Source: Candidatus Omnitrophota bacterium (lineage in GTDB: Bacteria; Omnitrophota; Gorgyraeia; 1-14-0-20-64-10). Taken from it: a DNA stretch of 64,000 nt. A model generated the notes under the pieces. The model ran no database searches, was not told the origin of the DNA, and was given only the letters and a program-made list of their open reading frames with translations. Made by a program: the position numbers and the translations under genes. The DNA is taken from the NCBI GenBank assembly GCA_016177405.1, contig JACOVG010000024.1, forward strand, positions 71,079-135,078, given 5' to 3'. Below are positions 3,313 to 36,181 of the stretch, piece by piece; position 1 is the stretch's first letter, and each line of letters starts with the position of its first letter.

Positions 3313-3538
3313 GAGCACGTTTCAAAACCGTCATCGCGAGCCCCCGCCCCTGGCGGGGGCGTGGCGATCTCGTCTTAAAAGCGAGATTGCTTCGGCCTAA
3401 AGGCCTCGCAATGACGAGTTATCTAAGGAGTCATCCCCGCCCTCGCTTACGCGAGGGTAAACTACAGCGGGGATCCCTGTCATTCCCCCGAAAGGGGGAA
3501 TCAGATCCTCACTTTCGTGAGGATGACTTAAGGGTGCA
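3313..3538. repeat. cluster of 4-5 REP-like palindromic hairpin elements in the sdhA-sdhB intergenic space
   Basis: Consecutive perfect hairpins: gcccccgcc-cct-ggcgggggc; gagattgc...ggcc-taaa-ggcc...gcaatgac; gtcatccccgc[cctcgc-ttac-gcgagg]...gcggggatc; attccccc-gaaa-gggggaat; gatcctcac-tttc-gtgaggatgac. The same modules recur at 12672, 55097 and 4543. Confidence 0.65.
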
Positions 3539-18651: not shown

Positions 18652-18680
18652 CCGGGCTTAACCCGGAGCCCTTTTTCTTT
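18652..18680 (+). terminator. hairpin plus T-tract (ccggg-cttaa-cccgg agcc CTTTTTCTTT), an intrinsic-terminator-like structure 25 nt upstream of the giant ORF start
   Basis: 5-bp GC stem followed by a T-rich run. Lies between the glpD stop (18572) and the giant gene ATG (18705), downstream of an AT-rich putative promoter region (18573-18650). Confidence 0.4.
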
Positions 18681-18704: not shown

Positions 18705-21700
18705 ATGAAAAAACTACGATCGCTCATCTCGCTTGCCTTGGCGCTCCAGCTTGCCCTGCCAAACCCTGCCGGAGTTTACCCAGAGCTTAGTCGAAGGGCC
18801 CTGCGCGTTAACCAGCTAAGAGAAGACCCCGCCGGAAAGACCCTTGCCGGTTTGGAAGAAGCCCTTCAGGGGAAGATGTTTTCAACCCCGGTGCCTGGCA
18901 CCAAGATGGCTGAAGGGGCCCGGAGGCAGATGAGCCAGTTCTTCCTGGCGCTGGGAACCTTCCTGCTCCTGTGCGCCGGAGGCAGGGGCGAAGAAGCGGT
19001 TTCGCCCCCGCTTATATCTTCAGCCGGCCCGGTATCCCCTCCATCCGATTCCAGCCAGAGAGCGCGCGGCCTGCTTTCCATCGGTCGAGGGACCTACGAA
19101 GGCGTTCTGAAGTCGCCAGCCAGAAGCTGGGCGGTTGGGGAGTTTGCCGAGAGTTATGAAGAATACGAGAGGATGCTGGCCAAGTTTCCCGACCTCCCGC
19201 CCATGGTCGAAGAGGCCTTGGATTACCTGAAGGAGAACCACCCTGGGATTTATGAGCGGTACGTCTTGCCCGGGATCTCTCGAATCATCCTGGTGGAAGG
19301 GGACATCCTAACCGCTCAAGCGCTGGGAGAGGGGAATGTTCTTCTCGCGGATGCCACCGTGCGGCACCTTCACGCCATGCCCCGCCAGGATCGTCCTCGC
19401 GTTCTCGCGGGAATCTTGGCTCATGAGGCGGTCCACAATACCCATCGCCAAAGAGGGCGTTTCCCCTCCACGAAGGACGAAGAGCCGGCGGACAGCGCTC
19501 TCGCCATGGAAGAGCTCACCGCCTACCTGATTCAGGCAGCCATTCCATTTGCCGAAACCCAACGTCCTGGAGCGATTCAGCCCATGGGGTATCTCATTTT
19601 TCAGGAGGATCTCTTTGGCCTGCGGCATGTTTCCGACGGACATTGGCTTGGGCTTTTCTCCGGGTTGGTGATCGGCCAAGGCGGTCTTTTCTTTCCGGAC
19701 GAGCTGGGCAGGCCCCCGAAGGTCCTCTGGCCGCTGGCCTCTCGGAGGATTCAAGCGCTTGCAAAGATCGAGCGGATGGAGCGGCAGAGGTTTGGAGAGG
19801 AGACGGCCGTTGAATTCCTGATATTCCACAAGGGAGAGGAAGATCCGAGGGCGGTCTATGTGGAGTATCGAATCCGGGAGGTGATCTATCGGCGGAAGGT
19901 TGACGTCAGAAGAGGCGGGAGGACATCGGTTGGGAAACCTGCAGTCGTTTCAAGGGACGCGTCGGTCTTTCATCGGGAGGTTCAAGAGCCATATGAGACA
20001 AAAGGGGGACCTGCCGCGGACCCCAAGGTCCTTAGGGATCTCAAGGCCTTCTTATTGGAGGTTGCCCAGCAGTTGTCAAATGAGCCAAGGACGCCGGCCG
20101 ATCAACGCCTCCTTGAGGTCATCCGTGAGATTCAAAAAAGATTAGAACCCCCCCCGGCGCCGCCCAAGCCCACGGTGCCTGGCAGAAAAGGGCTAGAAAC
20201 CCCCACCGGGCTGGGCAGGGCGGAGACGCAGCCGCCGAACCAGCCGCGGACGTTCTGGGCGGCCCGCGGCAACGGTAAAGTTCCCTTCACCCCAACGGCC
20301 CTCACTCGTAAATCAACTCCTCCGGTGTCTGGCCCCACCGCTGGGCTGGAGGAGGGGACCTCGCTTAAGAGGCGGATGGAGATTGCCAAAGGTCATGGCG
20401 CTCTCTACATCTCATTGATCGATATCTTCTTAAGACCAGGAGATTTGGAGGAGAAAAACCAGAGGGTCGAGCAGCAGATTCGAGACCTCCCCCCCGGATT
20501 TCCGAAAAGCATGAAGGAAGGTTACCTTGAAGGATATCGGAGATTTCTAGGAGGACTTGCAGCTAACCATGCTCTTCTTGAGGATTTTAGACAAGAAGGA
20601 GTCCGCGGACTTCTTTCGCGTCTGGCCTTGAGTTTAGAGGAAGATCCAGCAAGACCTTCGATGAGGATAAAGGCTGTTCGAGGAGTGTTAGAACGGAGTT
20701 TGAGCAGGGAAATGAATGATGCGGATTATCTTCTCACCACGTTCATCGTCTCATCTGGCCTTGAGAAGAAAAAGGATATGAATGAGATCGAACTTGATCT
20801 GCAAAAAGTCTTAGCTCACCCGGTTCGTCAAGGGTCCACACGCCTTTTAGAACCGACGCGGGGTGTTCTCATCGTTGAGGTCCAGGAAGAACTCATTCGT
20901 TTGATGCAAAATCGTGGGCTGCTGCTTTGGGCAGGGGCAGCGTTTTACGTTCCAAGTGAAAGCAATCATTTACCCAATTTTATTATAGTGCCAGACAATT
21001 CTCAGCTTTGGAAAAAGGCCCTGGCAAACGAGAGATACCTTACGGATGACCCTGATGTTCGCCATGAATTTCATCACCTCGTTTGGGATCTCCTCATGCG
21101 CAGCGGGTTCTTAAGAGAAACAAAGGAATCATCGGTGGGCAGGAGTAAAGCCTTTGATGGTTTTAGAGACGAGGTTAGCGCCTATATCGTTGCTGCCAAT
21201 AAACATTTCGCGGGAGTAGAACCAAAGTTACTGAATTATCTGGAGGGGACAGGTGACCTATCCGCAGACGCTCGGAAGGCGACCCGCGATGCGAGGGATT
21301 TTTCCGCCGCCGCTATGGAGATAGCCGAACAGCTAGGCATTCCCCGTTCCGCCTTTCTCTATGCTTCCATGACAGCGAGAAATTTCTCCGAGTTAAAAAG
21401 ACTTTTTGCGGAGTTAACTCCCTTACGCAAGTTGGAAGACCTTGAGGCCTGCGGCTTGCTCTATGCCGCATGGGAGAAATTGAGATATGAAGCGGATGTA
21501 AGCAAATCCATCGGAGATCTGCTTCGGGAGAAAGGGTTACGCGTCGACCCGGCCCTCGCACAAGCGTTTGCCATCCATCACCTCCGATCAGACGAAAAGT
21601 CCTTCCAGCGGTTGGGCGAGCTGGATGAAGAGTTGGGAAGAATTGAGAAGGTCTTTGCGGCATTTGGGTCGAGGCTTCCATCTCGGGAGGGCGTCTTGGA

Positions 21701-24700
21701 AGCCGTCTTTGAAACCCGGCTCCCTCTGCCTCTTGAAACGCGCCAAACCATCCGGACGTTCTCGTTGGGCGAACGGACTGGAATCCCGCTGGGTTTGAAA
21801 CCAGAGGATTTCTTAACGTCCCTCGTCTCCTTCCTTCTCATCGATGATCCCGCCACAGGGAACAGGTTCAGAATATACCAAGCCATCGTTCGCTCTTCAC
21901 CTGTTATGCTGGCGGCCTTCCGAAAGGTTCAGGACGAGATTATTCGTAAGGGGAGTCAGGCTTACCGGATCGAGATGAAGGGGAGGGGGGCATTGGAGGC
22001 CGAGATCAAAACGATATCGGACTGGATAAAACGCTTAGGTGAACCGCCGCCAGCGTTGGACACCCCAGCGCCAGCCACCCCCGCCGGGCTGGAGAAGGTG
22101 GTGAGGGGAAATTTGGCCATGCTAAGGCAGGCGTACCCTCTTATGGAGAGTGCCGTTGTTCCTGAACCATTTGTGAGGGGAGAAAAGAACAGACCCCATC
22201 TCTATTTCGCCCTGAATGGGGCGGGGAAGATCCTCGAAATTAGACAAGATTGGGTGAGTACGGAAGATCGTGCGGCAAAATGGGTTCTGGGGCTTGCCTT
22301 ACGCTGGCCCGCCAAGGGGCCATTTCAACTCAGTACGGCTAAAAGAGATGTTGAAATTATAACGGGTCCAAGCGGCGCTGGCTACTCGAAATTGCCGAAG
22401 CTTTTTCTAGATTCAATAAAGTTGTTTAATCGGGTCCCCTATCCGTTCGCCGCCCTGACACGTTTTTCTCCCGATGAAGCCCAAAAGGAACTGGGCCAGT
22501 TCAAAGGACTGGGGAAGCTGCAGGCGGCGGAAACGTGGGTGGGACATGGCGGCACCAATAGGCGTGAAAAGATCTCGTTGGTGGATCCCCCAGGAAACCT
22601 CTGGTTTATCCATCTTAAGGACGTGATGGTTGAAAAGACGACGCGGGAAGAAAGATTTCTAGAGGGTTCTCTCTTCGTCAGGCAAAGGCAAATCTCTTTG
22701 GGTGAACTTCAGAAACTCATTGCTTCCTCTTCGCTTATCCAGAGGTTTCCCCGATCCCCCGCCGGGCTGGAGGAGGGATGGCTAAAGCGTGCTTTGAAGC
22801 GGTTTGGCTTTGTTTCAGGAAAACCGGTTCTTGAAGACAAGAAAGCGCAAGAAGGCCCACGGGCTGTTGCTGCCAGAGACCTCATTGCTAGGGGTGAGAA
22901 GCCAGAAGGCATCACCGAGGTGGTTGGTTACTTGGAGAGTGTTTTAGAAGAGGAACGGCGGAACGCCCAAATGGCTCTTACCCAGATTGCTGACGATAAG
23001 CAAAATAGCGATCCCGCCAAGGTGAACTTCCTTCGAGCCATGAACAACGCCCAGGTAGTCCAGAAGAGCGTTCCCAATCTCTTTAGGCCGGGCGTTTACC
23101 GTGCAGCTTACGATACCCTTAGAGAACTTGTCTCCTATGGAGAGTTCAATGAGGCATTCATTTCAGTGATTCCCATTTTGGCGGAGAAGCTCTCGTCTTC
23201 AGATGGGGACGTTCGCCTGCCCAGCCTAGCAGTCCTGAATTACCTTGCTGGGTTCGAGAAGTTCGCTGAGGCCATTAAGAAAGCCCGGGTACTGGAAAAG
23301 TGCCTCGCCAACCCCAACCTCTTACGCGATACGGCCAATCTCTACAGGAGACATGATGTTGAGCCGAGTATCTATCTTCTTTTCCTGAATGTGCCTGCCT
23401 ACCTTGGAACATTCAACTCCCGAGTTATCCCTCTACTGGCTGCCGGTTATTCGGATTCGGATCCATTAATCCGCAACGAGGCCAGCAGGGTTCTCCTTCG
23501 GCTTGCCCACTACCTGGAATTGTGGACAGCATACGTCACTCGAGTTATCCCCGCCATCCTGGGCAACCTTATGAATCCAGATGAATCCATCCGCGATTCG
23601 GCCAGGAGCGATCTCCTCGCTTTGGATAGCACACGCCCTTATTATCCGTTCCCCGAGGATGCCGACCTCGACGGACTTCATCAAGCAATCGTCTCCCGCA
23701 TTCCGCCTCCAGTCTTAACGGCCTACCGGCAGGCATGGTTTGATGGCAAGACGCTCAAGGCTTTGGATAATCCATTTAGGTCTGATGCGGTGAATGCGCT
23801 TAGCCAAGATATTTTTAAGAGAGACGCTGGATCGAAGGAGGAACGCCTGCTGCTTCAACTTCTTGGAGAGTTCTCTCCGGAGAAGGCCGCCGAGATCAAG
23901 AGTGTCTTGGAAAAAAGATCACGGGCACCTGGAACCGGCTTGCCAGGTGCCGCCGGGCTGGAGGAGGTGGCCGAAGAACTCAAGGGGCAGACGCTAAAGC
24001 TGCTCAACGACGTGTTTGGCGGCTCTGAAATCAAGCAGGTGACAAGGGAAGCGCTCGGGCGCCTCCAGGAAAGATTCGACAGGGCCCCAAGCGAGGAGAA
24101 GCGCGGCATCCTCGGAAGATTCTGGGAGATCTACCTGCCGTCCCTCCGCAAGCTTGCTCGACAGCGCATCCAAGAGACAGCCGCCACCGCCAGGCCCCTG
24201 CCCCCAGGCCATGTGGAGCCCTCCGTGGTCATCGTTGGACCGGCCGTGAACCTGAACCTCAACATTGGCTGGATGCCGGACCCGGAGGATTCCCAGCGGC
24301 TCGTCGTAGATCCAGGCGCGACCAGTTTGAAGGCCAACGGATCCCCAACGAACGTCATGGAGACCTTGCTGTTTCTGGGGACTCCCTTCCGGTCAATCGG
24401 CATGCGCGGAGCCGATGGGGCGCCGGTTCACCAAATATTCTTTGAGCTCCTCGGGGCCGTAGGGATTGACCCCCAGGAATGGCCCCGTGTCTCCGGGGAT
24501 GTTGATTTCGTCCCCACGATGTCCGCTGGCACGCTGGGGCTTGATTATCGCTTCATCCCGCCTCTCCCTCCCTGGAAGAATGCCGAGTTGTCGAATTACA
24601 CCGGCGCGGTGTCTCGGGTCACTGAAGAGCTCGCCACAGGGGGAAGACCGCACGGGGCCTTGGCGGTGACCAGCCGCGTTCCGGCCAACGCCCCCTCAGA

Positions 24701-27700
24701 CTTTCTCTCGCAGCTCTTTCGGATCGGGAAGAAGGGAGGCCTGTTCGTGGTCTATGATCCCAAGACGAACACCCTGGAGAATCCGGAGATCCGCAGCGCC
24801 ATCGTGGCTGAAGGACCCCACCTCATCACGCCGAACCTGGAAGAGTTCTCTGTGCTGGTCGGCCTTCCTCTCGAAGAGCTTCAGACTCCGGAGCAGATCA
24901 TCGTTGCAGCCCATCGGCTGATCGGACGGCCGAAAACCGATATCCCAATGATCCTAATTTCGCTCGGAGACAGGGGGGCTCTGCTGATCGACAAGGAGCG
25001 TGCAGCCTACGCCAACGTGCCGCCGGTTTCCGTCGTCGGCCCGGGAGGGGCAGGGGACGCCGGTCTGGCCGGTTTGTTGCGCCAATACGCCCAGACGGAG
25101 GCGTCCCAGAGGCCATTCTCCACCCTAAGGGACTCGGAGTTCCTGTCCCTGCTGCGCGCCTACGTCGCCGCTGGGGCCGCGGCGGTCCTGATGCCTGGCG
25201 ATGAGTCTCCCTTCCTGGAGGGTGTCGTTCAAATGGAGCAGCAGGTCCGAACGACGTTCTTCCGGGGAGAGCTTCCTTCAGAACATCTGGCCGGGCTTTT
25301 TACCCCAGTGGAACGCCCTACTGCCCAAAGCCCCTATCAGAACCGGGTGTGGGTACCGCGGCTGGGGCGTTTTTTCTTCGCGGATGAGGAGGTCATCTCT
25401 CCGGACAATGCCGGTTCCGACCTCTACCTGAATTTCATCCTCTCCAACCCGAGTCTCTTTAGGGATAAGACGGTTCTGGAGCCCTTCACCGGTTCCGGTG
25501 TGCTGGCGTACGCCTTGGCGTCGGTTGGGGCCACGGTGGTGGCGACGGATGTCTCTGAATCGGCGATTCGCCTCGCTGAAAGGAACCGCCAGGATTGGCC
25601 GCCGGAAATCCGGGGCCGGGTGACGTTCGGGATCAGCGATGTCTATGGCAATCTGTGGAGAATCACCGCTCTACGTGAATTCGATGTGATGATTGGCAAC
25701 AATCCCACCCAGAGGCAGGATCCTCTGCCTGGGGATGGGGCCTCCTACATGACAAGTGCCGGCGAGCATTTTGAAGTCATCCGGGAGGCCATCACCGGGC
25801 TCGCTGTCCTGCTTAAGCCTGGCGGCAGCGCCTATTTGCAGACCCGTGTTGTTCAGGAGCAGGAGGAACCTCTGCGCCGGCTGACAGCCGAACACCTCAA
25901 GGAGAAACTCCTTCCAGAGGGGTGGGATCTTGAGCCGACCAGCTACGAGGGGATGGGCAGGACCGAGTTGATTCCGCTTGTGATTAACCGCATCTTCCGC
26001 ACCCCCGCCGGGTTGGAAGAGGAGGAGGCGGGTGGACGGGTGAGGGGATGGGCTTTGTCGCTGATTGGCCGCCTGTTTCAATTCCCGAGTCGGCTTGTGA
26101 CAGAGCGGAAACTCATGAAGATCCTGAAAAATCCCAACGATAACCCGTACGAACGACGTTTGGATGCCTTGGAAGTCGTTTCTATCACAGGGGACAAGAG
26201 GTTGCGCGCCAAGTGGGATTCTTCTCCTGGCTGGGATTTGAGTTATCGGGAAGCGGTAATAAAGCACTTGGCCAGGATGGGAAGCAAGAAGCTCGTGCCC
26301 CTGCTTAGGGAAATCCTTCAGGATCCAAAGACAGAAACTGCGGCTGGCGTGGTGGCAGCAAGGGAGATGATCGATTTGGGGGCCACGGACGTGGCGGTTG
26401 CGTACCTTGGTCAGGCGGTGGGGAAAGAAGAAATCCCCCCGCAGAGTCATGAGGATGTTATCAAGGCGTTATGGAAAGAAGAAATCTCGCCGCTGGATTA
26501 TGAGAATGTTATCAGGGCGCTGGGGAAAGCTGGGGGAACCGCGGCGGTGGGGTACCTTGGCAAGGTGGCGGAGAAACTGTGGCTGGGCGATGGCTCGCCC
26601 AGCTACTGGGCGCTTGAGGCACTGGGAAGGATCGGCAGCCAAGAGGCCTTGGACCGCTTAAGGGGATTTGCATCGCACCACAAGGTACAGCTCCTTCGAT
26701 TCATGGCGCAAACTGTGCTGACGGAAATTGAAAATCCGAAGAGGGCGATTCCCTCTCTGAAACAACTGATGTTGGATTCAAGGGTTCCCAATGAATTTAA
26801 GGCCACCGTTCTGGAAAGGATTGCGGAAGGCGGCTCCCCCGACGGGATTGCCTTCGTGGGAGAAATGGCCAGGGATTTGAAGATCACCTCTTTGCGGGAT
26901 AAGGCGGTTGAAGGCCTGGTCAAGAATGGCAGCCCCCAGGCGGTTGGAGAGCTCGCGGAGGTATTGAGGGTTGAGGATGGGATCTCCTCTTTCTGGGCCA
27001 GCACCCTGGAGGGCCTTGCGACGATAAAAACGCCCGAAGCGGTAGCTCTTTTAGGCAGACTGGCAACGGATAAGGGAATGCTGGTTCTTTCCAGGAGTAA
27101 AGTGATTGACCTCTTGCTCAAGGTGGAGAGCCGGCACGCCATACCGCATTTGGCTAAGTTGGCGCAGGAGGAGGGAGAGAACGTCCTCCTGCATGGTGAC
27201 AAGCAAGCTGCCGCTCTAAGACTCATAGAGATCGGCGGCGATGAGGCGCTTCCATACCTTAAGCAAATTGCCAGGAATGGCTGGTCTTGGACTTTGGCCA
27301 TACAGGGGCTTGGAGAAATGGGCGGCGTGGAGGGGCTTGATTTCCTGGCCAGGTTAGCCGTCGATAAAGAGGTTGACCCCAAGAGAAAGGAACGGGCCCT
27401 TTTTCAACTTGCCGATGTGAGCTCTCCCGAAGCGCTCGATTGGTTGAGAAGGGTAGCCATGGATCCTGATCAAGATCCCACCCTGCAAGCTGCGGCGATG
27501 TCGGCCTTGATGCGCGTAATTCCGAGGTCTCTTCCTTATCTGCTCGGTGGGTTGCTGGTTGCGGATGACGAAGGGATTCCATTGGCCATGTTACGGCGGT
27601 TCTCAAAGAAAGATATCCTGGCGGCGGTCAGCCGTGGTTCTCCCGGGCCAGAGAAACTTCTTTGGCTGCCCCCTGTCGGCAGCAAGGTGCCTGTGGCGCT

Positions 27701-28964
27701 GAGGAAAGAAGCGGGGGGGATGAAAAGCGACAATCTCGGCGTCTTCGGAACACACCTCACCGCTGAGGGACAGTTGAGGAGGATGAAGGACATTGTAAAC
27801 GTACTCGGGGCACAAAACATACACCAGATGACGGTACAGGGCCGCCTGACAGACCCCTTTAAATATGTGGCTGCCCTCCTCATTCTTGCAACCCCCACGC
27901 AGTTCATGAACCTGGAGGCAATAGGCACAGGCACCGATAGCTGGAAAACGTGGCTTCAGATTGGGCCTCTTGTCCACGACGGGCTTCAAGCCAACAAGCC
28001 GATCAACCCTCTGTGGGGTAACGAGGGCCGCACCGATTTTCTCCTTCTCATGACGCCAGAGGAGGTCCAATTGGCAGAGGGCTACCCGATCAAGCTTAAG
28101 GCCTATCAGCGATTGGCGTTGGCGCTTCACGCGGCCCAGGGGACGGTTCCAAGCCAAATGCCCAAACAGCTTCGGGAGAGGCTGGCCGATGTCTGGCGAG
28201 AATTTGTGCAAGAAGCGGATAAGCTGCTTGTGGAAAGTTACGCGAAGCCGGCGGTGGAGCTTCCATGGTTTTCAGAAGGCGCGGACTCCAAGGGACATCC
28301 TTTGAGCGCCTACGGTAAGCGGCAAGAGGCGGACTGGGGTCCCATCCAGCAGGCCTTCCTTCGCGCCAGAGAGAAGATTCTGGATGGGGCCCAGACGGAT
28401 GAAGAGAAAATGGCGGTACTCTACGGGGTTGTCGGGCCATCTTTGGGACTCCTGGCGAGATTCTCGAAGAGGGTAGACCAGGTCCTGGGGGTCTCTATGC
28501 CCCAGCCGGCCGTTCCACCGTCCCCCGCAGGGTTGGAGGAGGCGCGGGAGGCGGCGGCGAGGGAGCGGTTGGATGGGATGAGGTCGGCGGCGCTGACCTT
28601 GGACTGGGTGGTGATTGGAAAGAGAGTTGCGGGACAGTTTCCCGGGCTTGAGCAGTTGGCTGGGCTGGAGGAACGGATTTTAATCGATGGGGATGATCCA
28701 GCAGAGACGGCCTTTAAACTGATTCAGCGGGGCGCCGCTTGGGGCGATCGGGTGACCTTCTTTGGCGGCTTGGAAGAAGGGGAGAAGCTTACCTTTGTGG
28801 CCAGAGATGCCGGGCTTACGTTTCAGATCGTTGGTCTTAAGGAGCAGGGTTTTTCCATTCAGCTTCGGCAGATCTTGGCGGGTCTTGGGATTCCGGACGC
28901 GGCGATTGCGGCTGGTCTCGAGGAGATGGCCGCCGACCTGACCTTCCTAGGCCAAGCGGCTTGA
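18705..28964 (+). CDS. giant (3419 aa) secreted multidomain protein. Contains a signal peptide, a HEAVH motif, a second HEFHH motif, a PfkB/ribokinase-like kinase domain, a class-I SAM-methyltransferase-like domain and PBS-lyase HEAT repeats. Punctuated by nine (P/A)AGLEE motifs
   Basis: Single uninterrupted 10,260-nt ORF with no competing frames. N-terminal MKKLRSLISLALALQLALP signal. HEAVH at nt 19422-19436. PfkB motifs LITPNLEEF...VVGPGGAGDAGLAGLL (~24650-25100). MTase motif I LEPFTGSGVLAYA, ATDVSE and IGNNPTQ (~25460-25760). Repeated ALGxxGxxxAVxxL HEAT units (26100-27500). AGLEE motifs at nt 18846, 20337, 22080, 22758, 23949, 26004, 28524, 28663 and 28906. Confidence 0.75.
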   Translation: MKKLRSLISLALALQLALPNPAGVYPELSRRALRVNQLREDPAGKTLAGLEEALQGKMFSTPVPGTKMAEGARRQMSQFFLALGTFLLLCAGGRGEEAVSPPLISSAGPVSPPSDSSQRARGLLSIGRGTYEGVLKSPARSWAVGEFAESYEEYERMLAKFPDLPPMVEEALDYLKENHPGIYERYVLPGISRIILVEGDILTAQALGEGNVLLADATVRHLHAMPRQDRPRVLAGILAHEAVHNTHRQRGRFPSTKDEEPADSALAMEELTAYLIQAAIPFAETQRPGAIQPMGYLIFQEDLFGLRHVSDGHWLGLFSGLVIGQGGLFFPDELGRPPKVLWPLASRRIQALAKIERMERQRFGEETAVEFLIFHKGEEDPRAVYVEYRIREVIYRRKVDVRRGGRTSVGKPAVVSRDASVFHREVQEPYETKGGPAADPKVLRDLKAFLLEVAQQLSNEPRTPADQRLLEVIREIQKRLEPPPAPPKPTVPGRKGLETPTGLGRAETQPPNQPRTFWAARGNGKVPFTPTALTRKSTPPVSGPTAGLEEGTSLKRRMEIAKGHGALYISLIDIFLRPGDLEEKNQRVEQQIRDLPPGFPKSMKEGYLEGYRRFLGGLAANHALLEDFRQEGVRGLLSRLALSLEEDPARPSMRIKAVRGVLERSLSREMNDADYLLTTFIVSSGLEKKKDMNEIELDLQKVLAHPVRQGSTRLLEPTRGVLIVEVQEELIRLMQNRGLLLWAGAAFYVPSESNHLPNFIIVPDNSQLWKKALANERYLTDDPDVRHEFHHLVWDLLMRSGFLRETKESSVGRSKAFDGFRDEVSAYIVAANKHFAGVEPKLLNYLEGTGDLSADARKATRDARDFSAAAMEIAEQLGIPRSAFLYASMTARNFSELKRLFAELTPLRKLEDLEACGLLYAAWEKLRYEADVSKSIGDLLREKGLRVDPALAQAFAIHHLRSDEKSFQRLGELDEELGRIEKVFAAFGSRLPSREGVLEAVFETRLPLPLETRQTIRTFSLGERTGIPLGLKPEDFLTSLVSFLLIDDPATGNRFRIYQAIVRSSPVMLAAFRKVQDEIIRKGSQAYRIEMKGRGALEAEIKTISDWIKRLGEPPPALDTPAPATPAGLEKVVRGNLAMLRQAYPLMESAVVPEPFVRGEKNRPHLYFALNGAGKILEIRQDWVSTEDRAAKWVLGLALRWPAKGPFQLSTAKRDVEIITGPSGAGYSKLPKLFLDSIKLFNRVPYPFAALTRFSPDEAQKELGQFKGLGKLQAAETWVGHGGTNRREKISLVDPPGNLWFIHLKDVMVEKTTREERFLEGSLFVRQRQISLGELQKLIASSSLIQRFPRSPAGLEEGWLKRALKRFGFVSGKPVLEDKKAQEGPRAVAARDLIARGEKPEGITEVVGYLESVLEEERRNAQMALTQIADDKQNSDPAKVNFLRAMNNAQVVQKSVPNLFRPGVYRAAYDTLRELVSYGEFNEAFISVIPILAEKLSSSDGDVRLPSLAVLNYLAGFEKFAEAIKKARVLEKCLANPNLLRDTANLYRRHDVEPSIYLLFLNVPAYLGTFNSRVIPLLAAGYSDSDPLIRNEASRVLLRLAHYLELWTAYVTRVIPAILGNLMNPDESIRDSARSDLLALDSTRPYYPFPEDADLDGLHQAIVSRIPPPVLTAYRQAWFDGKTLKALDNPFRSDAVNALSQDIFKRDAGSKEERLLLQLLGEFSPEKAAEIKSVLEKRSRAPGTGLPGAAGLEEVAEELKGQTLKLLNDVFGGSEIKQVTREALGRLQERFDRAPSEEKRGILGRFWEIYLPSLRKLARQRIQETAATARPLPPGHVEPSVVIVGPAVNLNLNIGWMPDPEDSQRLVVDPGATSLKANGSPTNVMETLLFLGTPFRSIGMRGADGAPVHQIFFELLGAVGIDPQEWPRVSGDVDFVPTMSAGTLGLDYRFIPPLPPWKNAELSNYTGAVSRVTEELATGGRPHGALAVTSRVPANAPSDFLSQLFRIGKKGGLFVVYDPKTNTLENPEIRSAIVAEGPHLITPNLEEFSVLVGLPLEELQTPEQIIVAAHRLIGRPKTDIPMILISLGDRGALLIDKERAAYANVPPVSVVGPGGAGDAGLAGLLRQYAQTEASQRPFSTLRDSEFLSLLRAYVAAGAAAVLMPGDESPFLEGVVQMEQQVRTTFFRGELPSEHLAGLFTPVERPTAQSPYQNRVWVPRLGRFFFADEEVISPDNAGSDLYLNFILSNPSLFRDKTVLEPFTGSGVLAYALASVGATVVATDVSESAIRLAERNRQDWPPEIRGRVTFGISDVYGNLWRITALREFDVMIGNNPTQRQDPLPGDGASYMTSAGEHFEVIREAITGLAVLLKPGGSAYLQTRVVQEQEEPLRRLTAEHLKEKLLPEGWDLEPTSYEGMGRTELIPLVINRIFRTPAGLEEEEAGGRVRGWALSLIGRLFQFPSRLVTERKLMKILKNPNDNPYERRLDALEVVSITGDKRLRAKWDSSPGWDLSYREAVIKHLARMGSKKLVPLLREILQDPKTETAAGVVAAREMIDLGATDVAVAYLGQAVGKEEIPPQSHEDVIKALWKEEISPLDYENVIRALGKAGGTAAVGYLGKVAEKLWLGDGSPSYWALEALGRIGSQEALDRLRGFASHHKVQLLRFMAQTVLTEIENPKRAIPSLKQLMLDSRVPNEFKATVLERIAEGGSPDGIAFVGEMARDLKITSLRDKAVEGLVKNGSPQAVGELAEVLRVEDGISSFWASTLEGLATIKTPEAVALLGRLATDKGMLVLSRSKVIDLLLKVESRHAIPHLAKLAQEEGENVLLHGDKQAAALRLIEIGGDEALPYLKQIARNGWSWTLAIQGLGEMGGVEGLDFLARLAVDKEVDPKRKERALFQLADVSSPEALDWLRRVAMDPDQDPTLQAAAMSALMRVIPRSLPYLLGGLLVADDEGIPLAMLRRFSKKDILAAVSRGSPGPEKLLWLPPVGSKVPVALRKEAGGMKSDNLGVFGTHLTAEGQLRRMKDIVNVLGAQNIHQMTVQGRLTDPFKYVAALLILATPTQFMNLEAIGTGTDSWKTWLQIGPLVHDGLQANKPINPLWGNEGRTDFLLLMTPEEVQLAEGYPIKLKAYQRLALALHAAQGTVPSQMPKQLRERLADVWREFVQEADKLLVESYAKPAVELPWFSEGADSKGHPLSAYGKRQEADWGPIQQAFLRAREKILDGAQTDEEKMAVLYGVVGPSLGLLARFSKRVDQVLGVSMPQPAVPPSPAGLEEAREAAARERLDGMRSAALTLDWVVIGKRVAGQFPGLEQLAGLEERILIDGDDPAETAFKLIQRGAAWGDRVTFFGGLEEGEKLTFVARDAGLTFQIVGLKEQGFSIQLRQILAGLGIPDAAIAAGLEEMAADLTFLGQAA

Positions 28965-28974: not shown

Positions 28975-29880
28975 TTAGCCGGTGCCGAGGACGTGCCGGA
29001 GGGTCCAGTCCAGGCGCGGATAGATGAAGGGGTAGCCGGTGGATTTCAGGCGAGCCGAGACCGCCCGCTGGCTGGCCAGAAGCAAGGCATCGGCCATCTC
29101 GCCGAAGGCCAGCCTGGCCGCGAAGGCCGGCAGGGGAAAAAGGGCCGGCCGCCACAAGACCCTTCCCAGGGTCTTGGTGAACTCCCGGTTGGTGACCGGG
29201 TTGGGGGAGACGATGTTCACCGGCCCCTGGATCTGCTCGATCACGATCGCGTGAAGGATGGCCCCCACCGCGTCGTCCAGGGCGACCCAGCTCATGTACT
29301 GCCTGCCCGATCCGATGGTGCCTCCCAGGCCCAGCCGAAAGGGGAAGGTCATCACCGGCAGGGCCCCGCCGGCAGCGCCCAGCACCATCCCGAAGCGAAG
29401 ATTCACCACCCGGATTCCTGCCTGTGACGCCGGCTGGGTGGCGGCCTCCCAGGCTTGGCCCACCTCCGCCAGAAAGCCGCTTCCCGCCGGGCTGTCCTCG
29501 TTGAGTGTCTCGTCCCCGCGGCTGCCGTAGATGCCGACCGCCGAGGCGCTTAAGAAAACGGCCGGGGGTTTCTTCAGTTTGGGGAGCGATTCCGAGAGGA
29601 ATTGGGTTGCCTGAACCCGGCTGGTTCTGATGAGCTCCTTTTTGGCGGGGGTCCAGCGGCCCTTGGCGATGTTGTCGCCGGCCAAATGGATGAGGGCGTC
29701 AAGCCCCTCCAGCTTATCCAGATCGATTTTCTCCGCGGCCGGATCCCAGAAGGCCGTTCCTTCCTGGTTTTGAGCGGGTGCCCGGATGAGGCGGATGACC
29801 TCGTGGCGCCTCTGATGGATGAGGAAGTTGGCGAGGGCCGAGCCGACGAACCCGCTCGAGCCTGTCAGGGCGATGCGCAT
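28975..29880 (-). CDS. TIGR01777/YfcH-family NAD-dependent epimerase-like protein (DUF1731 C-terminal)
   Basis: MRIALTGSSGFVGSAL Rossmann N-terminus, 301 aa, YfcH-like architecture. The minus-strand ORF does not overlap neighbouring genes. Confidence 0.7.
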   Translation of the reverse strand: MRIALTGSSGFVGSALANFLIHQRRHEVIRLIRAPAQNQEGTAFWDPAAEKIDLDKLEGLDALIHLAGDNIAKGRWTPAKKELIRTSRVQATQFLSESLPKLKKPPAVFLSASAVGIYGSRGDETLNEDSPAGSGFLAEVGQAWEAATQPASQAGIRVVNLRFGMVLGAAGGALPVMTFPFRLGLGGTIGSGRQYMSWVALDDAVGAILHAIVIEQIQGPVNIVSPNPVTNREFTKTLGRVLWRPALFPLPAFAARLAFGEMADALLLASQRAVSARLKSTGYPFIYPRLDWTLRHVLGTG

Positions 29881-29954: not shown

Positions 29955-30983
29955 ATGAAAGCGATCGCGTTTGATCATCACGGCGGCGTGGAGGTCCTCA
30001 AATACCTGGAGGTTCCGGCTCCCAGGATGGGGGAGGACGAGGCCCTCATTGAGGTGGAGGCCTGCGGCATCAACCATCTGGATCTCTGGACCCGGCAGGG
30101 TTTGCCAGGCGTTCAGGTTCCCATGCCGCACATCTTGGGCTGTGAGGTGGTGGGGAAGGTGGCCAAGGTTGGAGCCAAGGTCACCCACGTGAAGAAGGGG
30201 GACCGGGTTTTGGCGGCGCCGGGGATAAGCTGCGGCTCCTGCCCGGCCTGCCAGGGCGGCCGCGACAGCCTCTGCCGGGAATTCAAGATCATGGGTCTTC
30301 AGCGGGACGGCGGCTACGCCGAAATGGTGTCGGCTCCGGGCAAGAACCTGATTCCGGTTTCTTCCAAGCTTAAGCCGGAGGAGTGGGCGGCCGTGCCGCT
30401 GGTTTTTGTCACCGCGTGGCACATGCTGGTGACCCGGGCCGGGCTCAAGGCCGGCGAATCGGTGCTCATCCATGCCGGCGGCTCCGGCGTGGGCTCGGCC
30501 GCCATTCAGGTGGCCCGGCTTTCCGGGGCCACCGTCTTCGCGACGGTCGGCTCGGATGAGAAGCTGAAGAAGGCGAAGGCGCTGGGGGCCCACTGGGTGA
30601 TCAACTACAACAGGCGGGATTTTCCCGAGGAGGTTCAGCGCCTCACCGAGGGCCGCGGGGTGGACGTTGTCTTCGAGCACATCGGCCCGGCCACCTGGCG
30701 CGGCAGTATGAAATGCCTGGCCCGGGGCGGGCGGCTGGTCACCTGCGGGGCGACCACCGGCCCCCTGGTGGAGCTAGATCTTCGCTTCTTCTTCACCCGC
30801 GAGCTTTCGGTGATGGGCTGCTACATGGGGGGCCGCCGGGAGCTGGACCAGGTGCTGGGGCTGGCGGCGGAGGGCCGGCTGAAGCCGGTGGTGGACACCG
30901 TCTTCCCGCTCAAGGAGGCCGCCCGGGCCCAAGCGGTGATGCAAAGCAGAAACTTCTTCGGCAAGCTCGTCCTGAAGGTTTAG
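29955..30983 (+). CDS. zinc-binding alcohol dehydrogenase / quinone oxidoreductase family (MDR)
   Basis: GINHLDLW, GCEVVGKV and a GGSGVGSAAIQ NAD(P) motif. Length 342 aa. Confidence 0.8.
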   Translation: MKAIAFDHHGGVEVLKYLEVPAPRMGEDEALIEVEACGINHLDLWTRQGLPGVQVPMPHILGCEVVGKVAKVGAKVTHVKKGDRVLAAPGISCGSCPACQGGRDSLCREFKIMGLQRDGGYAEMVSAPGKNLIPVSSKLKPEEWAAVPLVFVTAWHMLVTRAGLKAGESVLIHAGGSGVGSAAIQVARLSGATVFATVGSDEKLKKAKALGAHWVINYNRRDFPEEVQRLTEGRGVDVVFEHIGPATWRGSMKCLARGGRLVTCGATTGPLVELDLRFFFTRELSVMGCYMGGRRELDQVLGLAAEGRLKPVVDTVFPLKEAARAQAVMQSRNFFGKLVLKV

Positions 30984-30985
30984 CA

Positions 30986-33575: not shown

Positions 33576-33865
33576 ATGAAAAAACGCAAGATTTACATTG
33601 ATACCGGCGGCCTGACCTGTCCGAAGAAGAGGTCCCAGGAGTTCTTGAGGGCTCTTTTGGACGCCCTCCGGAAGGCCGGGTTGGAGCAGGCGGTCCAAGT
33701 GATCCCCCGCGGGTGCTTTGGTTTGTGCAACCTGGCCCCGAATCTTTACATCGAGCCGGACGGCCTCTGGTACTCTCGCTTCACCGTGAAGGATATCCCG
33801 GAGATTGTTCAGTCACATTTGATTGGCGGCCAACCGGTTACGCGGTTGATCCACTACAAAAAGGG

Positions 33866-33869
<4 letters not shown>
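33576..33869 (+). CDS. thioredoxin-like [2Fe-2S] ferredoxin (NuoE-like fold)
   Basis: CPKK...[22 protein letters not shown]. Lies immediately upstream of nuoBCD, and its stop overlaps the nuoBCD start. Confidence 0.6.

Positions 33870-36177
<2,308 letters not shown>

Positions 36178-36181
<4 letters not shown>

What the first reader, a model, noticed from the sequence alone, without database searches (positions are those of the whole stretch)
18705..28964. 10.3-kb single ORF encoding a 3419-aa secreted multi-enzyme protein of unknown function
One uninterrupted frame with no credible competing ORFs encodes the following in order: an N-terminal signal peptide; an HExxH (HEAVH) zincin-like motif plus a second HEFHH; a PfkB/ribokinase-fold kinase-like domain with NxxE and GAGD motifs; a class-I SAM-methyltransferase-like domain with GxGxG motif I and a degenerate NPP[YF] motif (NNPTQ); and about 1400 aa of PBS-lyase-type HEAT repeats. 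This combination does not match any characterised protein family I can name. It is reminiscent of the giant genes reported in candidate-phylum genomes. It is the largest coding investment in the window and sits directly after a housekeeping glpKD operon.
Basis: partly seen in the sequence, partly recalled or inferred. Interest (0 to 1): 0.85.

Follow-up and report, generated by a model that had tools for sequence, protein, structure and literature searches.

The report
Modular polyprotein with AGLEE junctions
This is a real 3,419-residue gene from an Omnitrophota-labelled bacterium that strings together independent protein modules (two protease-like units, a sugar-kinase/methyltransferase pair, HEAT scaffolds), joined by a repeated five-residue 'AGLEE' linker that may mark where the chain is cut, which would be a testable clue to how the long multi-enzyme proteins of these bacteria work.

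Summary
The ORF (18705-28964, +) is real, and a second assembler recovers it identically. NCBI labels it a 'Candidatus Omnitrophica' MAG protein. The PfkB kinase, class-I methyltransferase, HEAT repeats and both HExxH motifs are confirmed. Detectable HEAT covers only about 440 aa (plus one weak 65-aa stretch), not 1400.

Six sit in linkers (mostly proline-rich) and split the protein into a leader, six modules and a conserved tail.

- **Module 2** (aa 551-1126) corresponds end to end to free-standing ~520-aa proteins of Patescibacteria. H-E-x-x-H, a Glu 32 residues downstream and a Tyr are invariant, which is zincin-like.
- **Syntenic ortholog** in a related MAG keeps the end of module 1 (all that contig holds upstream) and the tail, but has one ~180-aa module between two AGLEE motifs instead of ~2,700 aa.
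- **Other polyproteins** carrying module 2 use other junction peptides (D-x-A-M-[TM] ×8; DRLML ×3).

Best reading: a fast-evolving, cassette-built multi-effector polyprotein whose junction peptides are processing or recognition sites. This resembles polyvalent proteins and MARTX toxins. It is a small relative of the published Omnitrophota multi-enzyme long proteins, so it is a new variant of a known kind. Cleavage is inferred, not shown.

The parts
18705..28964 (+). Whole ORF, 3419 aa plus stop. NCBI names it 'MAG: methyltransferase domain-containing protein [Candidatus Omnitrophica bacterium]'.
   Evidence: an identical ORF is present in the Logan assembly of SRR12113433
18652..18671 (+). Terminator-like hairpin followed by a T-run between glpD and the ORF. 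It implies the ORF is its own transcription unit.
   Evidence: consensus scan only
18705..18770 (+). Leader, aa 1-22: signal-peptide-like (MKKLR plus a hydrophobic stretch SLISLALALQLAL).
   Evidence: heuristic only, no predictor was run
18846..18860 (+). Leader motif AGLEE (aa 48-52), about 25 aa after the signal-like segment. ORF 6702-9005 and the L002 ORF carry the motif at the same position.
18918..18983 (+). Second hydrophobic segment preceded by RR (aa 72-93, ARRQMSQFFLALGTFLLLCAGG). It could be a TAT-like or lipoprotein-like signal, or a membrane anchor.
   Evidence: ORF767 has TRRRFLN at the equivalent place
18990..20339 (+). Module 1 (aa 96-545), zincin-like: HEAVH at aa 240-244 (nt 19422-19436) and EELTAY at aa 269-274. 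Its C-terminal part (aa 268-503) is 40% identical to the syntenic ortholog P0011.
   Evidence: sub-threshold PF18818 MPTase-PolyVal hit placed exactly on the motif (E=0.07, 13.6 bits)
20340..20354 (+). Junction 1: PT-AGLEE (aa 546-550).
20355..22082 (+). Module 2 (aa 551-1126). It equals a whole free-standing ~520-aa protein family. Invariant residues are H787, E788, H791 (nt 21063-21077), E823, Y827 (nt 21171-21185) and G720. Putative gluzincin-type metallopeptidase of an undescribed family.
   Evidence: AF2 model with pLDDT 88.6 shows beta strands, then a helix carrying HExxH, then a helix carrying Glu; no Pfam or PDB match
22083..22097 (+). Junction 2: proline-rich linker followed by AGLEK (aa 1127-1131).
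22098..22760 (+). Module 3 (aa 1132-1352), no detectable family.
22761..22775 (+). Junction 3: SP-AGLEE (aa 1353-1357).
22776..23951 (+). Module 4 (aa 1358-1749). It has a weak HEAT/ARM signal at aa 1567-1632 (nt 23403-23600).
23952..23966 (+). Junction 4: GA-AGLEE (aa 1750-1754). A GC3 change point at aa 1744 coincides with it.
23967..26006 (+). Module 5 (aa 1755-2434), a two-enzyme unit with no AGLEE between the two domains.
24444..25250 (+). PfkB / 1-phosphofructokinase-type kinase domain (aa ~1914-2182). NxxE (PNLEE) and GAGD are intact.
   Evidence: Pfam PF00294 E=3.9e-16; NCBIfam 1-PFK subfamily E=3.7e-23 but below its cut-off; PDB 2abq and 3uqe alignments
25413..25880 (+). Class-I SAM methyltransferase domain (aa ~2237-2392). 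Motif I is LEPFTGSG and motif IV is the degenerate NNPTQ. It is closest to HemK/PrmC and PRMT-type enzymes.
26007..26021 (+). Junction 5: TP-AGLEE (aa 2435-2439).
26244..27572 (+). HEAT_2 / HEAT_PBS solenoid (aa ~2514-2956) inside module 6. It contains a 51-bp tandem duplication at 26413-26529.
27573..28526 (+). Rest of module 6 (aa 2957-3274): no family hit and a low-confidence helical AF2 model.
28527..28541 (+). Junction 6: PPSP-AGLEE (aa 3275-3279), directly before the tail.
28542..28961 (+). Conserved C-terminal tail (aa 3280-3419). It is predicted as a small alpha/beta domain with three further GLEE motifs at aa 3319, 3354 and 3403. It is 65% identical to the tail of ortholog P0011 and 34% identical to P0081/L002.

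Best explanation
The ORF is a genuine, chromosomally encoded, fast-evolving modular polyprotein.

Architecture (shown):
- An export- or anchor-type leader comes first.
- Six autonomous cargo modules follow: two zincin-like peptidase units, one unknown unit, an ARM/HEAT unit, a PfkB-kinase plus SAM-methyltransferase pair, and a HEAT solenoid with an unknown domain.
- A conserved alpha/beta tail ends the protein.
- Modules are joined by flexible linkers, mostly proline-rich, that end in the peptide [P/S/T]-A-G-L-E-E.

Evolution (shown): cargo between the conserved module 1 and the tail is exchanged as cassettes at these junctions.

Mechanism (inferred): the junction peptide is a recognition and processing site. 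After export or delivery, a metallopeptidase cuts at it. The peptidase is most plausibly one of the embedded HExxH...E modules, or else one encoded elsewhere in the genome. A zincin would be expected to cut between Gly and Leu, because zincins of the thermolysin type favour a hydrophobic P1' residue. Cutting would release the modules to act separately. This is the mechanism proposed for polyvalent proteins of phages and plasmids, and demonstrated for MARTX toxins.

Site of action (inferred): the ATP- and SAM-dependent modules must work in a cytoplasm. This could be the producer's own (membrane-anchored, facing inward) or that of a target cell.
For: 1. Motif statistics: 8 exact AGLEE copies plus AGLEK and GGLEE, against 0.023 expected (Poisson p about 2e-18). 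All are in the reading frame and their codons vary synonymously (TTG/CTG, GAA/GAG). Selection therefore acts on the peptide, not the DNA.
2. The motifs fall at independently defined module borders. Module 2 aligns over residues 6-564 of its 581 to residues 25-520 of a 523-aa free-standing protein, and homologues stop where the linker begins. No motif falls inside any Pfam envelope. In the AF2 model, the residues right after the motif and the proline-rich C-terminal linker are coil with pLDDT 54-69, while the core scores 88.6.
3. The syntenic ortholog P0011/L001 has the same downstream epimerase (76% aa identity) and ADH (83%). It keeps the end of module 1 (40% identity; the contig stops there) and the tail (65%). 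It carries a single ~180-aa module flanked by SAGLEE...SAGLEE in place of about 2,700 aa.
4. The same leader, GLEE motif, cargo and tail plan appears in the 848-aa ORF of L002. The leader and terminal GLEE motifs also appear in window ORF 6702-9005.
5. Other polyproteins that carry module 2 have their own junction peptides with identical placement, including one just before their tails. P0025 has D.AM[TM] ×8 (0.03 expected). P0004 has DRLML ×3 (0.002 expected). Each has a small residue followed by Leu or Met.
6. H787, E788, H791, E823 and Y827 are invariant in 27 of 27 family members at 20-36% identity. They lie on consecutive helices after beta strands, which is the zincin core topology described in PMC5512222. 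Module 1 has the same HExxH-x24-EExxAY pattern and a sub-threshold MPTase-PolyVal hit on it.
7. GC3 is mosaic. Change points at aa 1135 and 1744 lie within 8 residues of junctions 1127 and 1750.
8. West-Roberts et al. state that cleavage of Omnitrophota giant proteins is suspected but the cleavage points are unknown.
Against: - No experimental or proteomic evidence of cleavage exists.
- Three GLEE copies lie inside the predicted folded tail (pLDDT 70-84) in different structural contexts. Their positions are conserved in a 34%-identical homologue. This fits a binding or structural role better than cleavage.
- hhalign does not link modules 1 and 2 (probability 0.3).
- The MPTase-PolyVal hit is far below threshold.
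- The L002 protein has the motifs but no HExxH, so any protease would have to act in trans.
- Only four proteins of the AGLEE type were found.
- The third GC3 change point (aa 605) lies 59 residues from a junction.
- Topology, meaning secreted versus membrane-anchored in the cytoplasm, is unresolved.
Confidence: 0.45

Rival explanations
1. The protein is an unprocessed single-chain scaffold. It stays intact, tethered to the inner membrane by its N-terminal hydrophobic segments with the bulk in the cytoplasm. The HEAT/ARM blocks organise the enzyme modules into one assembly. AGLEE is then a structural or docking element, for example the start of each module's first helix or a short linear motif bound by the HEAT solenoid or by the tail.
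For: - GLEE motifs also sit inside the folded tail and are conserved there.
- The kinase and methyltransferase need ATP and SAM, which means a cytoplasmic site.
- The 2026 Omnitrophota preprint reads most long proteins as membrane-anchored and facing the cytoplasm, with HEAT/adaptin scaffolding.
- HEAT repeats are typical peptide-binding scaffolds (established knowledge).
Against: - Non-homologous modules have no structural reason to share an identical five-residue peptide in a disordered linker.
- Other lineages use unrelated peptides at the same positions, which is more typical of recognition by a co-evolving enzyme.
- Modules exist as free-standing proteins elsewhere.
- The positive charges (RR) lie on the N-terminal side of the second hydrophobic segment. 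This favours a signal-peptide orientation rather than an N-out/C-in anchor.
Confidence: 0.3
2. The AGLEE junctions are recombination scars or handles. The peptide and its coding DNA persist only because cassettes are swapped by recombination at this short shared sequence. It has no role in the mature protein.
For: - Cargo has been swapped between the conserved module 1 and the tail in the syntenic ortholog.
- GC3 change points lie at two junctions.
- Four junctions share 14-15 of the 15 nucleotides GCCGGGCTGGAGGAG.
- By analogy, polymorphic-toxin pre-toxin motifs such as VENN mark exchange points (established knowledge).
Against: - Synonymous codon differences among the copies (TTG/CTG, GAA/GAG, GCT/GCC/GCA) show peptide-level rather than DNA-level conservation.
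- 15 nt is short for RecA-type exchange.
- The motif is kept at 34% overall identity in P0081/L002, and inside the tail, where no exchange occurs.
- This reading is compatible with the best explanation rather than exclusive of it.
Confidence: 0.15
3. The ORF is an artefact: a chimeric assembly of several organisms' genes, or a run of fused pseudogenes that is never made as one protein.
For: - GC3 is heterogeneous (0.39-0.78) and lower than in the flanking genes (0.72-0.87).
- The protein is a singleton cluster on one contig.
Against: - The reading frame is open for 10,260 nt.
- A different assembler (Logan, SRR12113433) produces the identical ORF and flanks.
- Module 1, the tail and the downstream genes are syntenic in an independent MAG.
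- The junction peptide is in frame at every module border.
- Catalytic motifs are intact.
Confidence: 0.04
4. The protein is a member of one established adhesin or toxin family (RTX/MARTX, Rhs, autotransporter, T5/T9 substrate).
For: Large size and an N-terminal export-like signal.
Against: - No RTX, Rhs/YD, CPD, autotransporter, Ig-like or T9SS CTD domain appears in Pfam or NCBIfam scans of any tile.
- No PHROG, phage or plasmid match was found.
Confidence: 0.02

Closest known systems
Omnitrophota long multi-enzyme proteins: 'Archaeovorins' (West-Roberts et al. 2023, bioRxiv 10.1101/2023.11.21.568195) and class 1 'multi-enzyme metabolic clusters' (bioRxiv 10.64898/2026.06.07.730766)
   Same: - The taxon label is the same.
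- Unrelated enzyme domains (methyltransferase, kinase, peptidase-like) are strung on one polypeptide with HEAT scaffolding.
- Sequences are mostly unique singletons.
- Embedded peptidases are suspected of cutting the chain.
- The genes sit among housekeeping genes.
   Different: - It is about 10 to 40 times shorter (3.4 kaa, against thresholds of 10 kaa and 30 kaa or more).
- It has no transmembrane arrays, SecA, C39/S8 peptidase, glycosyltransferase, glycoside hydrolase or NUDIX domains.
- It comes from a 62% GC genome with complex I and glycerol catabolism.
- The conserved junction peptide, the conserved tail and the cassette swap are not described in those papers. A term search found 0 uses of 'linker', 'motif' or 'polyprotein' in the 2026 preprint and 0 uses of 'linker' or 'polyprotein' in West-Roberts ('motif' was not searched there), and West-Roberts say cleavage points are unknown.
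Polyvalent proteins of phages and conjugative elements (Iyer et al. 2017, PMC5512222)
   Same: - Two to fifteen unrelated effector or enzyme domains sit in one chain.
- Zincin-like MPTase is the commonest domain, often present in several copies, and is proposed to cut the chain into functional units.
- Methyltransferases are frequent.
- Mosaicism is extensive.
- A related polyprotein, P0004, carries ART-PolyVal.
   Different: - The context is chromosomal and housekeeping, not a phage or conjugative element.
- There are no phage, plasmid or PHROG matches.
- The MPTase-PolyVal score is only 13.6 bits against a cut-off of 27.5.
- An N-terminal export-type leader is present.
MARTX toxins (multifunctional autoprocessing RTX toxins); comparison from established knowledge, not tested beyond domain scans
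   Same: - Conserved regions flank variable effector cassettes that differ between strains.
- An internal protease cuts in unstructured inter-effector linkers at a Leu-containing site, releasing effectors into a target cytoplasm.
   Different: - There are no RTX repeats and no cysteine protease domain.
- The candidate protease is a zincin.
- The junction is a fixed pentapeptide.
- No T1SS genes lie in the window.
Polymorphic toxin systems with pre-toxin junction motifs (CdiA VENN, Rhs DPxGL); comparison from established knowledge
   Same: A short conserved peptide marks the border between constant and variable parts, and coincides with both cassette exchange and processing.
   Different: Here the motif recurs at every module border rather than once before a C-terminal toxin. 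There is no immunity gene, and no Rhs or CdiA domains.
Gluzincin metallopeptidases (clan MA: HExxH plus a downstream Glu)
   Same: Modules 1 and 2 carry HExxH on a helix and a Glu 25-32 residues later within an ExxAY-type motif on the next helix, preceded by beta strands.

Membership tests
PfkB/ribokinase-fold carbohydrate kinases (PF00294) | Profile match above the Pfam gathering score | tested here: met
   59.7 bits against a cut-off of 25.8, E=3.9e-16, aa 1986-2131. PDB FruK and Pfk-2 align at E=3e-9 to 1e-8.
PfkB/ribokinase-fold carbohydrate kinases (PF00294) | Catalytic GAGD (Asp base) and NxxE motifs | tested here: met
   GGAGDAG and PNLEE align with GAGD and PNHHE of 2abq.
1-phosphofructokinase / hexose kinase subfamily (TIGR03168, TIGR03828) | Score above the curated equivalog or subfamily cut-off | tested here: not met
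   81.9 bits against a cut-off of 216.4, and 74.5 against 292. It resembles this subfamily most, but the substrate cannot be assigned.
Class-I SAM-dependent methyltransferases | Profile match above the gathering score, with motif I and an acidic residue at the end of beta-2 | tested here: met
   Methyltransf_31 scores 33.6 against 27 and Methyltransf_11 scores 23.4 against 21.2. LEPFTGSG and VVATD are present.
HemK/PrmC N5-glutamine methyltransferases | NPPY motif IV and an equivalog-level score | tested here: not met
   Motif IV reads NNPTQ. PrmC scores 32.6 bits against a cut-off of 199.
HEAT / PBS-lyase HEAT-like repeats | Repeated HEAT_2 and HEAT_PBS profile matches | tested here: met
   HEAT_2 scores 99.8 bits in 4 stretches and HEAT_PBS scores 46.3 bits, aa ~2514-2956. 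The extent is about 440 aa, not 1400.
Zincin (gluzincin) metallopeptidases | HExxH plus a downstream Glu ligand, conserved across homologues | tested here: met
   Module 2: H787, E788, H791, E823 and Y827 are invariant in 27 of 27 sequences and 24 of 24.
Zincin (gluzincin) metallopeptidases | Zincin fold: a beta sheet followed by the active-site helix and the Glu helix, with similarity to solved zincins | tested here: inconclusive
Zincin (gluzincin) metallopeptidases | Zinc-dependent peptidase activity | not testable with these tools
   This needs biochemistry.
MPTase-PolyVal (PF18818) / polyvalent proteins | Profile match above the gathering score | tested here: not met
   13.6 bits against a cut-off of 27.5, E=0.07, although the hit lies exactly on HEAVH...EELTAY of module 1.
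MPTase-PolyVal (PF18818) / polyvalent proteins | Encoded by a phage, prophage or conjugative element | tested here: not met
   The flanking genes are glpKD, trxB, an epimerase, ADH and complex I. There are no phage or plasmid tblastn matches and no PHROG hits to the enzyme or zincin modules.
Omnitrophota 'Archaeovorin' giant proteins | Length above 30,000 aa with many transmembrane segments | tested here: not met
   The protein is 3419 aa. A Kyte-Doolittle scan (19-residue window, threshold 1.6) flags only one borderline segment, at aa 2146 inside the PfkB domain; by inspection the only hydrophobic stretches that look like signals or anchors are the two short ones in the N-terminal leader.
Omnitrophota 'Archaeovorin' giant proteins | Domain repertoire: HEAT, methyltransferases and peptidases, plus glycosyltransferase, glycoside hydrolase and NUDIX | tested here: inconclusive
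   HEAT, a methyltransferase and putative peptidases are present. Glycosyltransferase, glycoside hydrolase and NUDIX are absent.
Omnitrophota 'Archaeovorin' giant proteins | Omnitrophota origin | tested here: inconclusive
   The NCBI label is Candidatus Omnitrophica. The closest related MAG contig is labelled 'uncultured Planctomycetia'. No phylogenetic marker was analysed.
MARTX / RTX toxins | RTX repeats and a cysteine protease domain | tested here: not met
   No such Pfam or NCBIfam hits were found.
Sec/TAT-exported proteins | A cleavable N-terminal signal peptide | not testable with these tools
   Only a heuristic was possible: MKKLR followed by 13 hydrophobic residues, and a second RR-plus-hydrophobic segment. 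SignalP or DeepTMHMM were not available.

The most novel reading that the evidence does not exclude
Short junction peptides form a lineage-specific processing or sorting code for exported multi-effector polyproteins in Omnitrophota-type bacteria.
- The peptide is AGLEE in this lineage, D-x-A-M-[T/M] in P0025 and DRLML in P0004.
- The peptides mark where modules are cut apart and where cassettes are exchanged.
- The code is read by a previously undescribed zincin family that is shared with Patescibacteria.
- If correct, this would give the first predicted cleavage map for the long and giant proteins of these phyla.
Probability: 0.3. Interest if true: 0.8.

Novelty: new variant of a known kind. 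Interest (0 to 1): 0.6.

Why it matters
Long and giant multi-enzyme proteins are a signature of Omnitrophota. They have been linked to a predatory or host-dependent lifestyle. [quoted passage not shown]

This 3.4-kaa protein is small enough to express and study. It offers several concrete handles:
- It has six sharply defined junction peptides that coincide with independently defined module borders.
- A natural cargo-swap variant exists at the same locus in a related genome.
- It carries candidate cis-acting zincins.
- Other lineages use different junction peptides at equivalent positions.

Together these turn the question into concrete experiments: N-terminomics, and cleavage assays with junction peptides. 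They also give a simple bioinformatic rule, over-represented pentapeptides in disordered linkers, for segmenting much larger giants. In addition, the work defines an unannotated HExxH...E family of about 520 aa that is shared between Patescibacteria and Omnitrophota, two groups of ultra-small, host-associated bacteria.

Tried and rejected
- **Word-indexed homology searches.** The full length found only itself. Residues 1-1353 found nothing. The tail found only P0081.
- **GTDB species-representative scans.** The full protein gave no relative. The tail alignment recovered only the contig already known.
- **JGI metagenome scan with the tail alignment.** Nothing was found.
- **Literature search for 'AGLEE'.** The hits were irrelevant.
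- **Internal Shine-Dalgarno or internal start hypothesis.** The motif DNA (GGAGGAGG) was checked for this. It was rejected because there is no consistently placed in-frame start codon downstream, and two copies use TTGGAAGAA, which lacks the SD-like sequence.
- **DNA-level repeat, uptake sequence or recombination site.** The copies differ at synonymous positions. Near-exact DNA matches elsewhere in the window are limited to the other GLEE protein and one ABC ATPase.
- **Internal protein repeats.** BLAST of the protein against itself shows none.
- **Homology between modules 1 and 2.** hhalign probability was 0.3, so this is not supported.
- **Phage and plasmid link.** Module 2 gave no tblastn match, and PHROGs gave no hit to the enzyme or zincin modules.
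- **PDB sequence searches of unknown regions.** Nothing was found.
- **Rfam, tRNA and tandem-repeat scans.** No RNA genes were found. The only repeat is one 51-bp duplication in the HEAT block.
- **Glutamate-methylation idea.** AGLEE loosely resembles chemoreceptor methylation sites, and the methyltransferase is HemK/PRMT-like. I considered that the methyltransferase might modify the motif or the terminal LGQ. There is no evidence for this, so it remains speculation.

Full report
**1. The observation**

The window holds one uninterrupted ORF from ATG 18705 to the stop at 28964 on the + strand, encoding 3419 aa. The largest ORF on any other frame inside it is 259 aa.

It lies 132 nt downstream of glpK-glpD, both identified by NCBIfam. 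The spacer is AT-rich and has a terminator-like hairpin at 18652-18671, so the ORF is probably its own transcription unit.

The flanking 64 kb is ordinary chromosomal housekeeping: thioredoxin reductase, succinate dehydrogenase/fumarate reductase flavoprotein, menaquinone synthesis, a NuoBCD fusion, sulfite reductase, 2-oxoacid:ferredoxin oxidoreductase and ABC transporters. There are no tRNA or Rfam hits.

The exact protein is in NCBI as 'MAG: methyltransferase domain-containing protein [Candidatus Omnitrophica bacterium]' on a 140-kb contig. It is a singleton among 5.8 billion clusters.

An independent assembly (Logan, run SRR12113433, 13.9-kb contig) encodes the identical 3419 aa with the same neighbours. 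The reads are probably the same as those behind the MAG, but the assembler is different.

**2. Domain claims**

Confirmed:
- PfkB scores 59.7 bits (E=3.9e-16) at aa 1986-2131. It is closest to the 1-phosphofructokinase/hexose-kinase subfamily but far below that subfamily's cut-off.
- GAGD and NxxE align with FruK (2abq) and Pfk-2 (3uqe).
- A class-I SAM methyltransferase lies at aa ~2237-2392, with LEPFTGSG, VVATD and the degenerate NNPTQ. Its best resemblances are to HemK/PrmC and PRMT enzymes, at superfamily level only.
- HEAT_2 and HEAT_PBS cover aa ~2514-2956, and there is one weak HEAT at aa 1567-1632.
- HEAVH is at aa 240 and HEFHH at aa 787.

Not confirmed:
- The '1400 aa of HEAT' is about three-fold too high.
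- Residues 1-1353, most of 1354-1750 and 2957-3419 have no Pfam, NCBIfam, PHROG or PDB-sequence match.

**3.

The pentapeptide AGLEE occurs 8 times, plus one AGLEK and one GGLEE, against 0.023 expected from composition (p about 2e-18).

All copies are in the ORF's frame. In a six-frame scan of the 64-kb window for [AG]GLE[EK], only four further matches turn up: one in ORF 6702-9005, one in an ABC ATPase, one in the NuoBCD-fusion ORF and one in a shadow frame overlapping glpK (for GLEE in long ORFs).

The codons vary synonymously (CTG/TTG, GAG/GAA, GCC/GCT/GCA). It is therefore the peptide that is conserved, not a DNA repeat.

Six copies sit at the end of linkers that mostly contain or end in proline...PT-AGLEE...PAPATP-AGLEK...RSP-AGLEE...LPGA-AGLEE...RTP-AGLEE and ...VPPSP-AGLEE. 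They divide the chain as follows:
- a leader (aa 1-95, with its own AGLEE at aa 48);
- module 1 (aa 96-545, HEAVH);
- module 2 (aa 551-1126, HEFHH);
- module 3 (aa 1132-1352);
- module 4 (aa 1358-1749, ARM/HEAT-like);
- module 5 (aa 1755-2434, PfkB plus methyltransferase, with no motif between them);
- module 6 (aa 2440-3274, HEAT solenoid plus an unknown domain);
- a 140-aa tail that contains three more GLEE motifs.

No motif falls inside a Pfam envelope.

**4. The modules are real units**

An exhaustive phmmer search with aa 1-1200 against 1.84 billion representatives gave 80 hits. Nearly all match aa ~550-1120.

Module 2 aligns over residues 6-564 of its 581 to residues 25-520 of a 523-aa protein. 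These free-standing ~510-550-aa proteins end exactly where the giant's proline-rich linker starts. Where named, they come from Patescibacteria (Microgenomates and 'Patescibacteria group').

In 27 sequences at 20-36% identity, the invariant residues are G720, H787, E788, H791, E823 and Y827.

An AF2 model built on this alignment is confident (pLDDT 88.6, pTM 0.86). It places HEFHH on helix 237-253 and E277/Y281 on the next helix (265-283), after four short beta strands. The residues right after the junction and the C-terminal linker are low-confidence coil. That is the zincin core layout described for MPTases in PMC5512222.

Module 1 shows the same HExxH-x24-EELTAY pattern and a sub-threshold hit (13.6 bits) to PF18818 MPTase-PolyVal exactly there. 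hhalign does not link it significantly to module 2.

**5. Cassette exchange at a syntenic locus**

P0011 lies on a 4.4-kb contig of GCA_964372575.1, labelled 'uncultured Planctomycetia', and its gene is cut by the contig end. It sits immediately upstream of the same minus-strand TIGR01777/DUF1731 epimerase (76% aa identity) and the ADH (83%), with an MFS gene inserted between them.

Its product matches aa 268-503 of module 1 (40% identity) and aa 3290-3419 of the tail (65%). Between them it carries only one ~180-aa kinase-like module, bounded by TSAGLEE and DSAGLEE, where the window protein has about 2,700 aa of other modules.

The locus therefore diverges much faster than its neighbours, and its cargo is replaced between conserved junction peptides.

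GC3 agrees with a mosaic origin. It is 0.39-0.78 along the ORF against 0.72-0.87 in the flanking genes, and significant change points at aa 1135 and 1744 lie within 8 residues of junctions 1127 and 1750. A third change point at aa 605 is 59 residues from junction 546.

**6. The same plan in other proteins**

- The 848-aa ORF of L002 (JGI 3300000574) has a signal peptide, GGLEE about 10 residues after it, AAGVEE, one large module, PPAAGVEE and then a homologous tail with GLEE at conserved positions.
- Window ORF 6702-9005 (767 aa) has a signal-like start, TGLEEAL at aa 46 and a good TAT-type TRRRFLN. Its C-terminus reads ...PAAQGGLEEASEKGLEE....
- The Omnitrophota protein P0025 (3938 aa) has two module-2 copies and D-x-A-M-[T/M] eight times (0.03 expected).
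- P0004 (1797 aa, with ART-PolyVal and a methyltransferase) has DRLML three times (0.002 expected).

In P0025 and P0004 the motifs again separate the Pfam and homology units, and the last copy directly precedes a conserved 'GGIDL' tail. The junction peptide is thus a property of the host polyprotein lineage, not of the module. All three motif types contain a small residue followed by Leu or Met.

**7. Mechanism**

Shown:
- The protein has a modular architecture.
- The junction motif is selected at the peptide level.
- Module 2 exists elsewhere as an autonomous protein.
- Cargo has been exchanged between related genomes.
- The kinase motifs are intact (GAGD, NxxE), as are methyltransferase motif I and the acidic residue at the end of beta-2; methyltransferase motif IV is degenerate (NNPTQ).
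- The HExxH...E signature is invariant.

Inferred, as the best explanation (confidence 0.45):
- The junction peptides are recognition and processing sites cut by a metallopeptidase.
- That peptidase is most economically one of the embedded zincin-like modules.
- Zincins of the thermolysin type prefer a hydrophobic P1' residue, which suggests cleavage at Gly|Leu. This rests on established knowledge, not on a test here.
- Cleavage would release modules that then act independently, as proposed for polyvalent proteins and as known for MARTX toxins.
- The ATP- and SAM-dependent module must act in a cytoplasm. That could be the producer's own, with the protein anchored and facing inward as the 2026 preprint proposes for most long Omnitrophota proteins, or that of a target cell.

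The main counter-evidence is that three GLEE copies lie within the predicted folded alpha/beta tail (pLDDT 70-84). They sit at a beta-alpha junction, at the end of a helix and inside the last helix, and are conserved at 34% identity. This suggests that at least these copies are binding or structural elements. In addition, the L002 protein lacks any HExxH, so a protease would have to act in trans there.

Rivals:
- an unprocessed HEAT-scaffolded single chain, with AGLEE as a docking or structural motif (0.30);
- a junction motif that is merely a recombination handle (0.15; this is compatible with the main reading);
- an assembly or pseudogene artefact (0.04);
- membership of a classical adhesin or toxin family (0.02; excluded by the scans).

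**8. Comparison with what is known**

In kind, this is a small relative of the multi-enzyme, HEAT-scaffolded long proteins of Omnitrophota. It fails their size and transmembrane criteria and lacks their glycosyltransferase, glycoside hydrolase, NUDIX, C39, S8 and SecA content.

It works most like polyvalent proteins and MARTX toxins, but it is not a member of either group. It has no mobile-element context, its MPTase score is sub-threshold, and it has no RTX or cysteine protease domain.

Three features appear to be undescribed:
- the conserved junction pentapeptide, and the existence of different such peptides in other lineages;
- the conserved leader-motif and tail frame with swappable cargo;
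- the ~520-aa HExxH...E family shared with Patescibacteria.

A term search found no mention of linkers, motifs or polyproteins in the 2026 preprint, and no mention of linkers or polyproteins in West-Roberts ('motif' was not searched there). West-Roberts state that cleavage points are unknown. My literature access is limited to the held library.

**9. Verdict**

I rate it a new variant of a known kind, with interest 0.6. The ORF itself would not astonish a specialist in 2026. The junction code and the natural cargo-swap do make the open question of whether, and where, these long proteins are cut directly testable on a tractable 3.4-kaa example.

Noticed in passing
window 6702-9005 (+): A 767-aa ORF with no Pfam, NCBIfam or PHROG hit shares the giant's leader plan. 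It has a signal-like start, TGLEEAL at aa 46 and then a TAT-type TRRRFLN followed by a hydrophobic stretch. It ends in a proline-rich stretch followed by GGLEEASEKGLEE, and it contains HEWVH. It looks like a one-module relative of the same protein class.
   Followed up: partly
window 9065-9916 (+): A Transglut_core2 (transglutaminase-like, cysteine-protease superfamily) gene lies directly downstream of the GLEE-bearing ORF 6702-9005. It is a possible trans-acting processing enzyme, which is pure speculation.
   Followed up: no
L007 10001-21817 (P0025) and L005 8001-13394 (P0004): Other polyproteins (P0025 is NCBI-labelled Candidatus Omnitrophica; P0004 carries no source name) that carry the module-2 family have their own over-represented junction peptides: D-x-A-M-[TM] ×8 and DRLML ×3. 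These separate the Pfam units and directly precede a conserved C-terminal 'GGIDL...PVII' tail. Both proteins also share a conserved N-terminal domain (LSPYEKDRIIP...). Both genes sit among housekeeping genes.
   Followed up: partly
L002 925-3471: The called 219-aa protein P0081 is only the C-terminal part of an 848-aa ORF. That ORF has a signal peptide, GGLEE and AAGVEE motifs, and the conserved tail. The gene call in the source record is truncated.
   Followed up: yes
window 26413-26529: A 51-bp tandem duplication (2.3 copies, 78% match) lies inside the HEAT block. It encodes KEEI(P/S)P..(H/Y)E(D/N)VI(K/R)AL twice, which indicates local repeat expansion.
   Followed up: no
L001 2788-3963: In the related MAG, an MFS transporter gene is inserted between the epimerase and the ADH. 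These two genes are adjacent in the window (28975-29880 and 29955-30983).
   Followed up: no
window 33713-36181 (+): A single 822-aa ORF fuses the NuoB (20 kDa), NuoC (30 kDa) and NuoD (49 kDa) domains of complex I.
   Followed up: no
whole window; L003: The taxonomic label is uncertain. The window is 62% GC and encodes complex I, glycerol catabolism and menaquinone synthesis, which is atypical for reduced, ultra-small Omnitrophota. The closest related contig is labelled 'uncultured Planctomycetia'. There are no rRNA, tRNA or Rfam hits in the 64 kb to check the placement.
   Followed up: partly
window 29955-30983 and 30713-31774 (+): The longest-ORF calls for the ADH and the Mrp/ApbC ATPase overlap by about 270 nt. 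The NCBIfam match to Mrp begins at residue 93, so the true Mrp start is probably further downstream.
   Followed up: no
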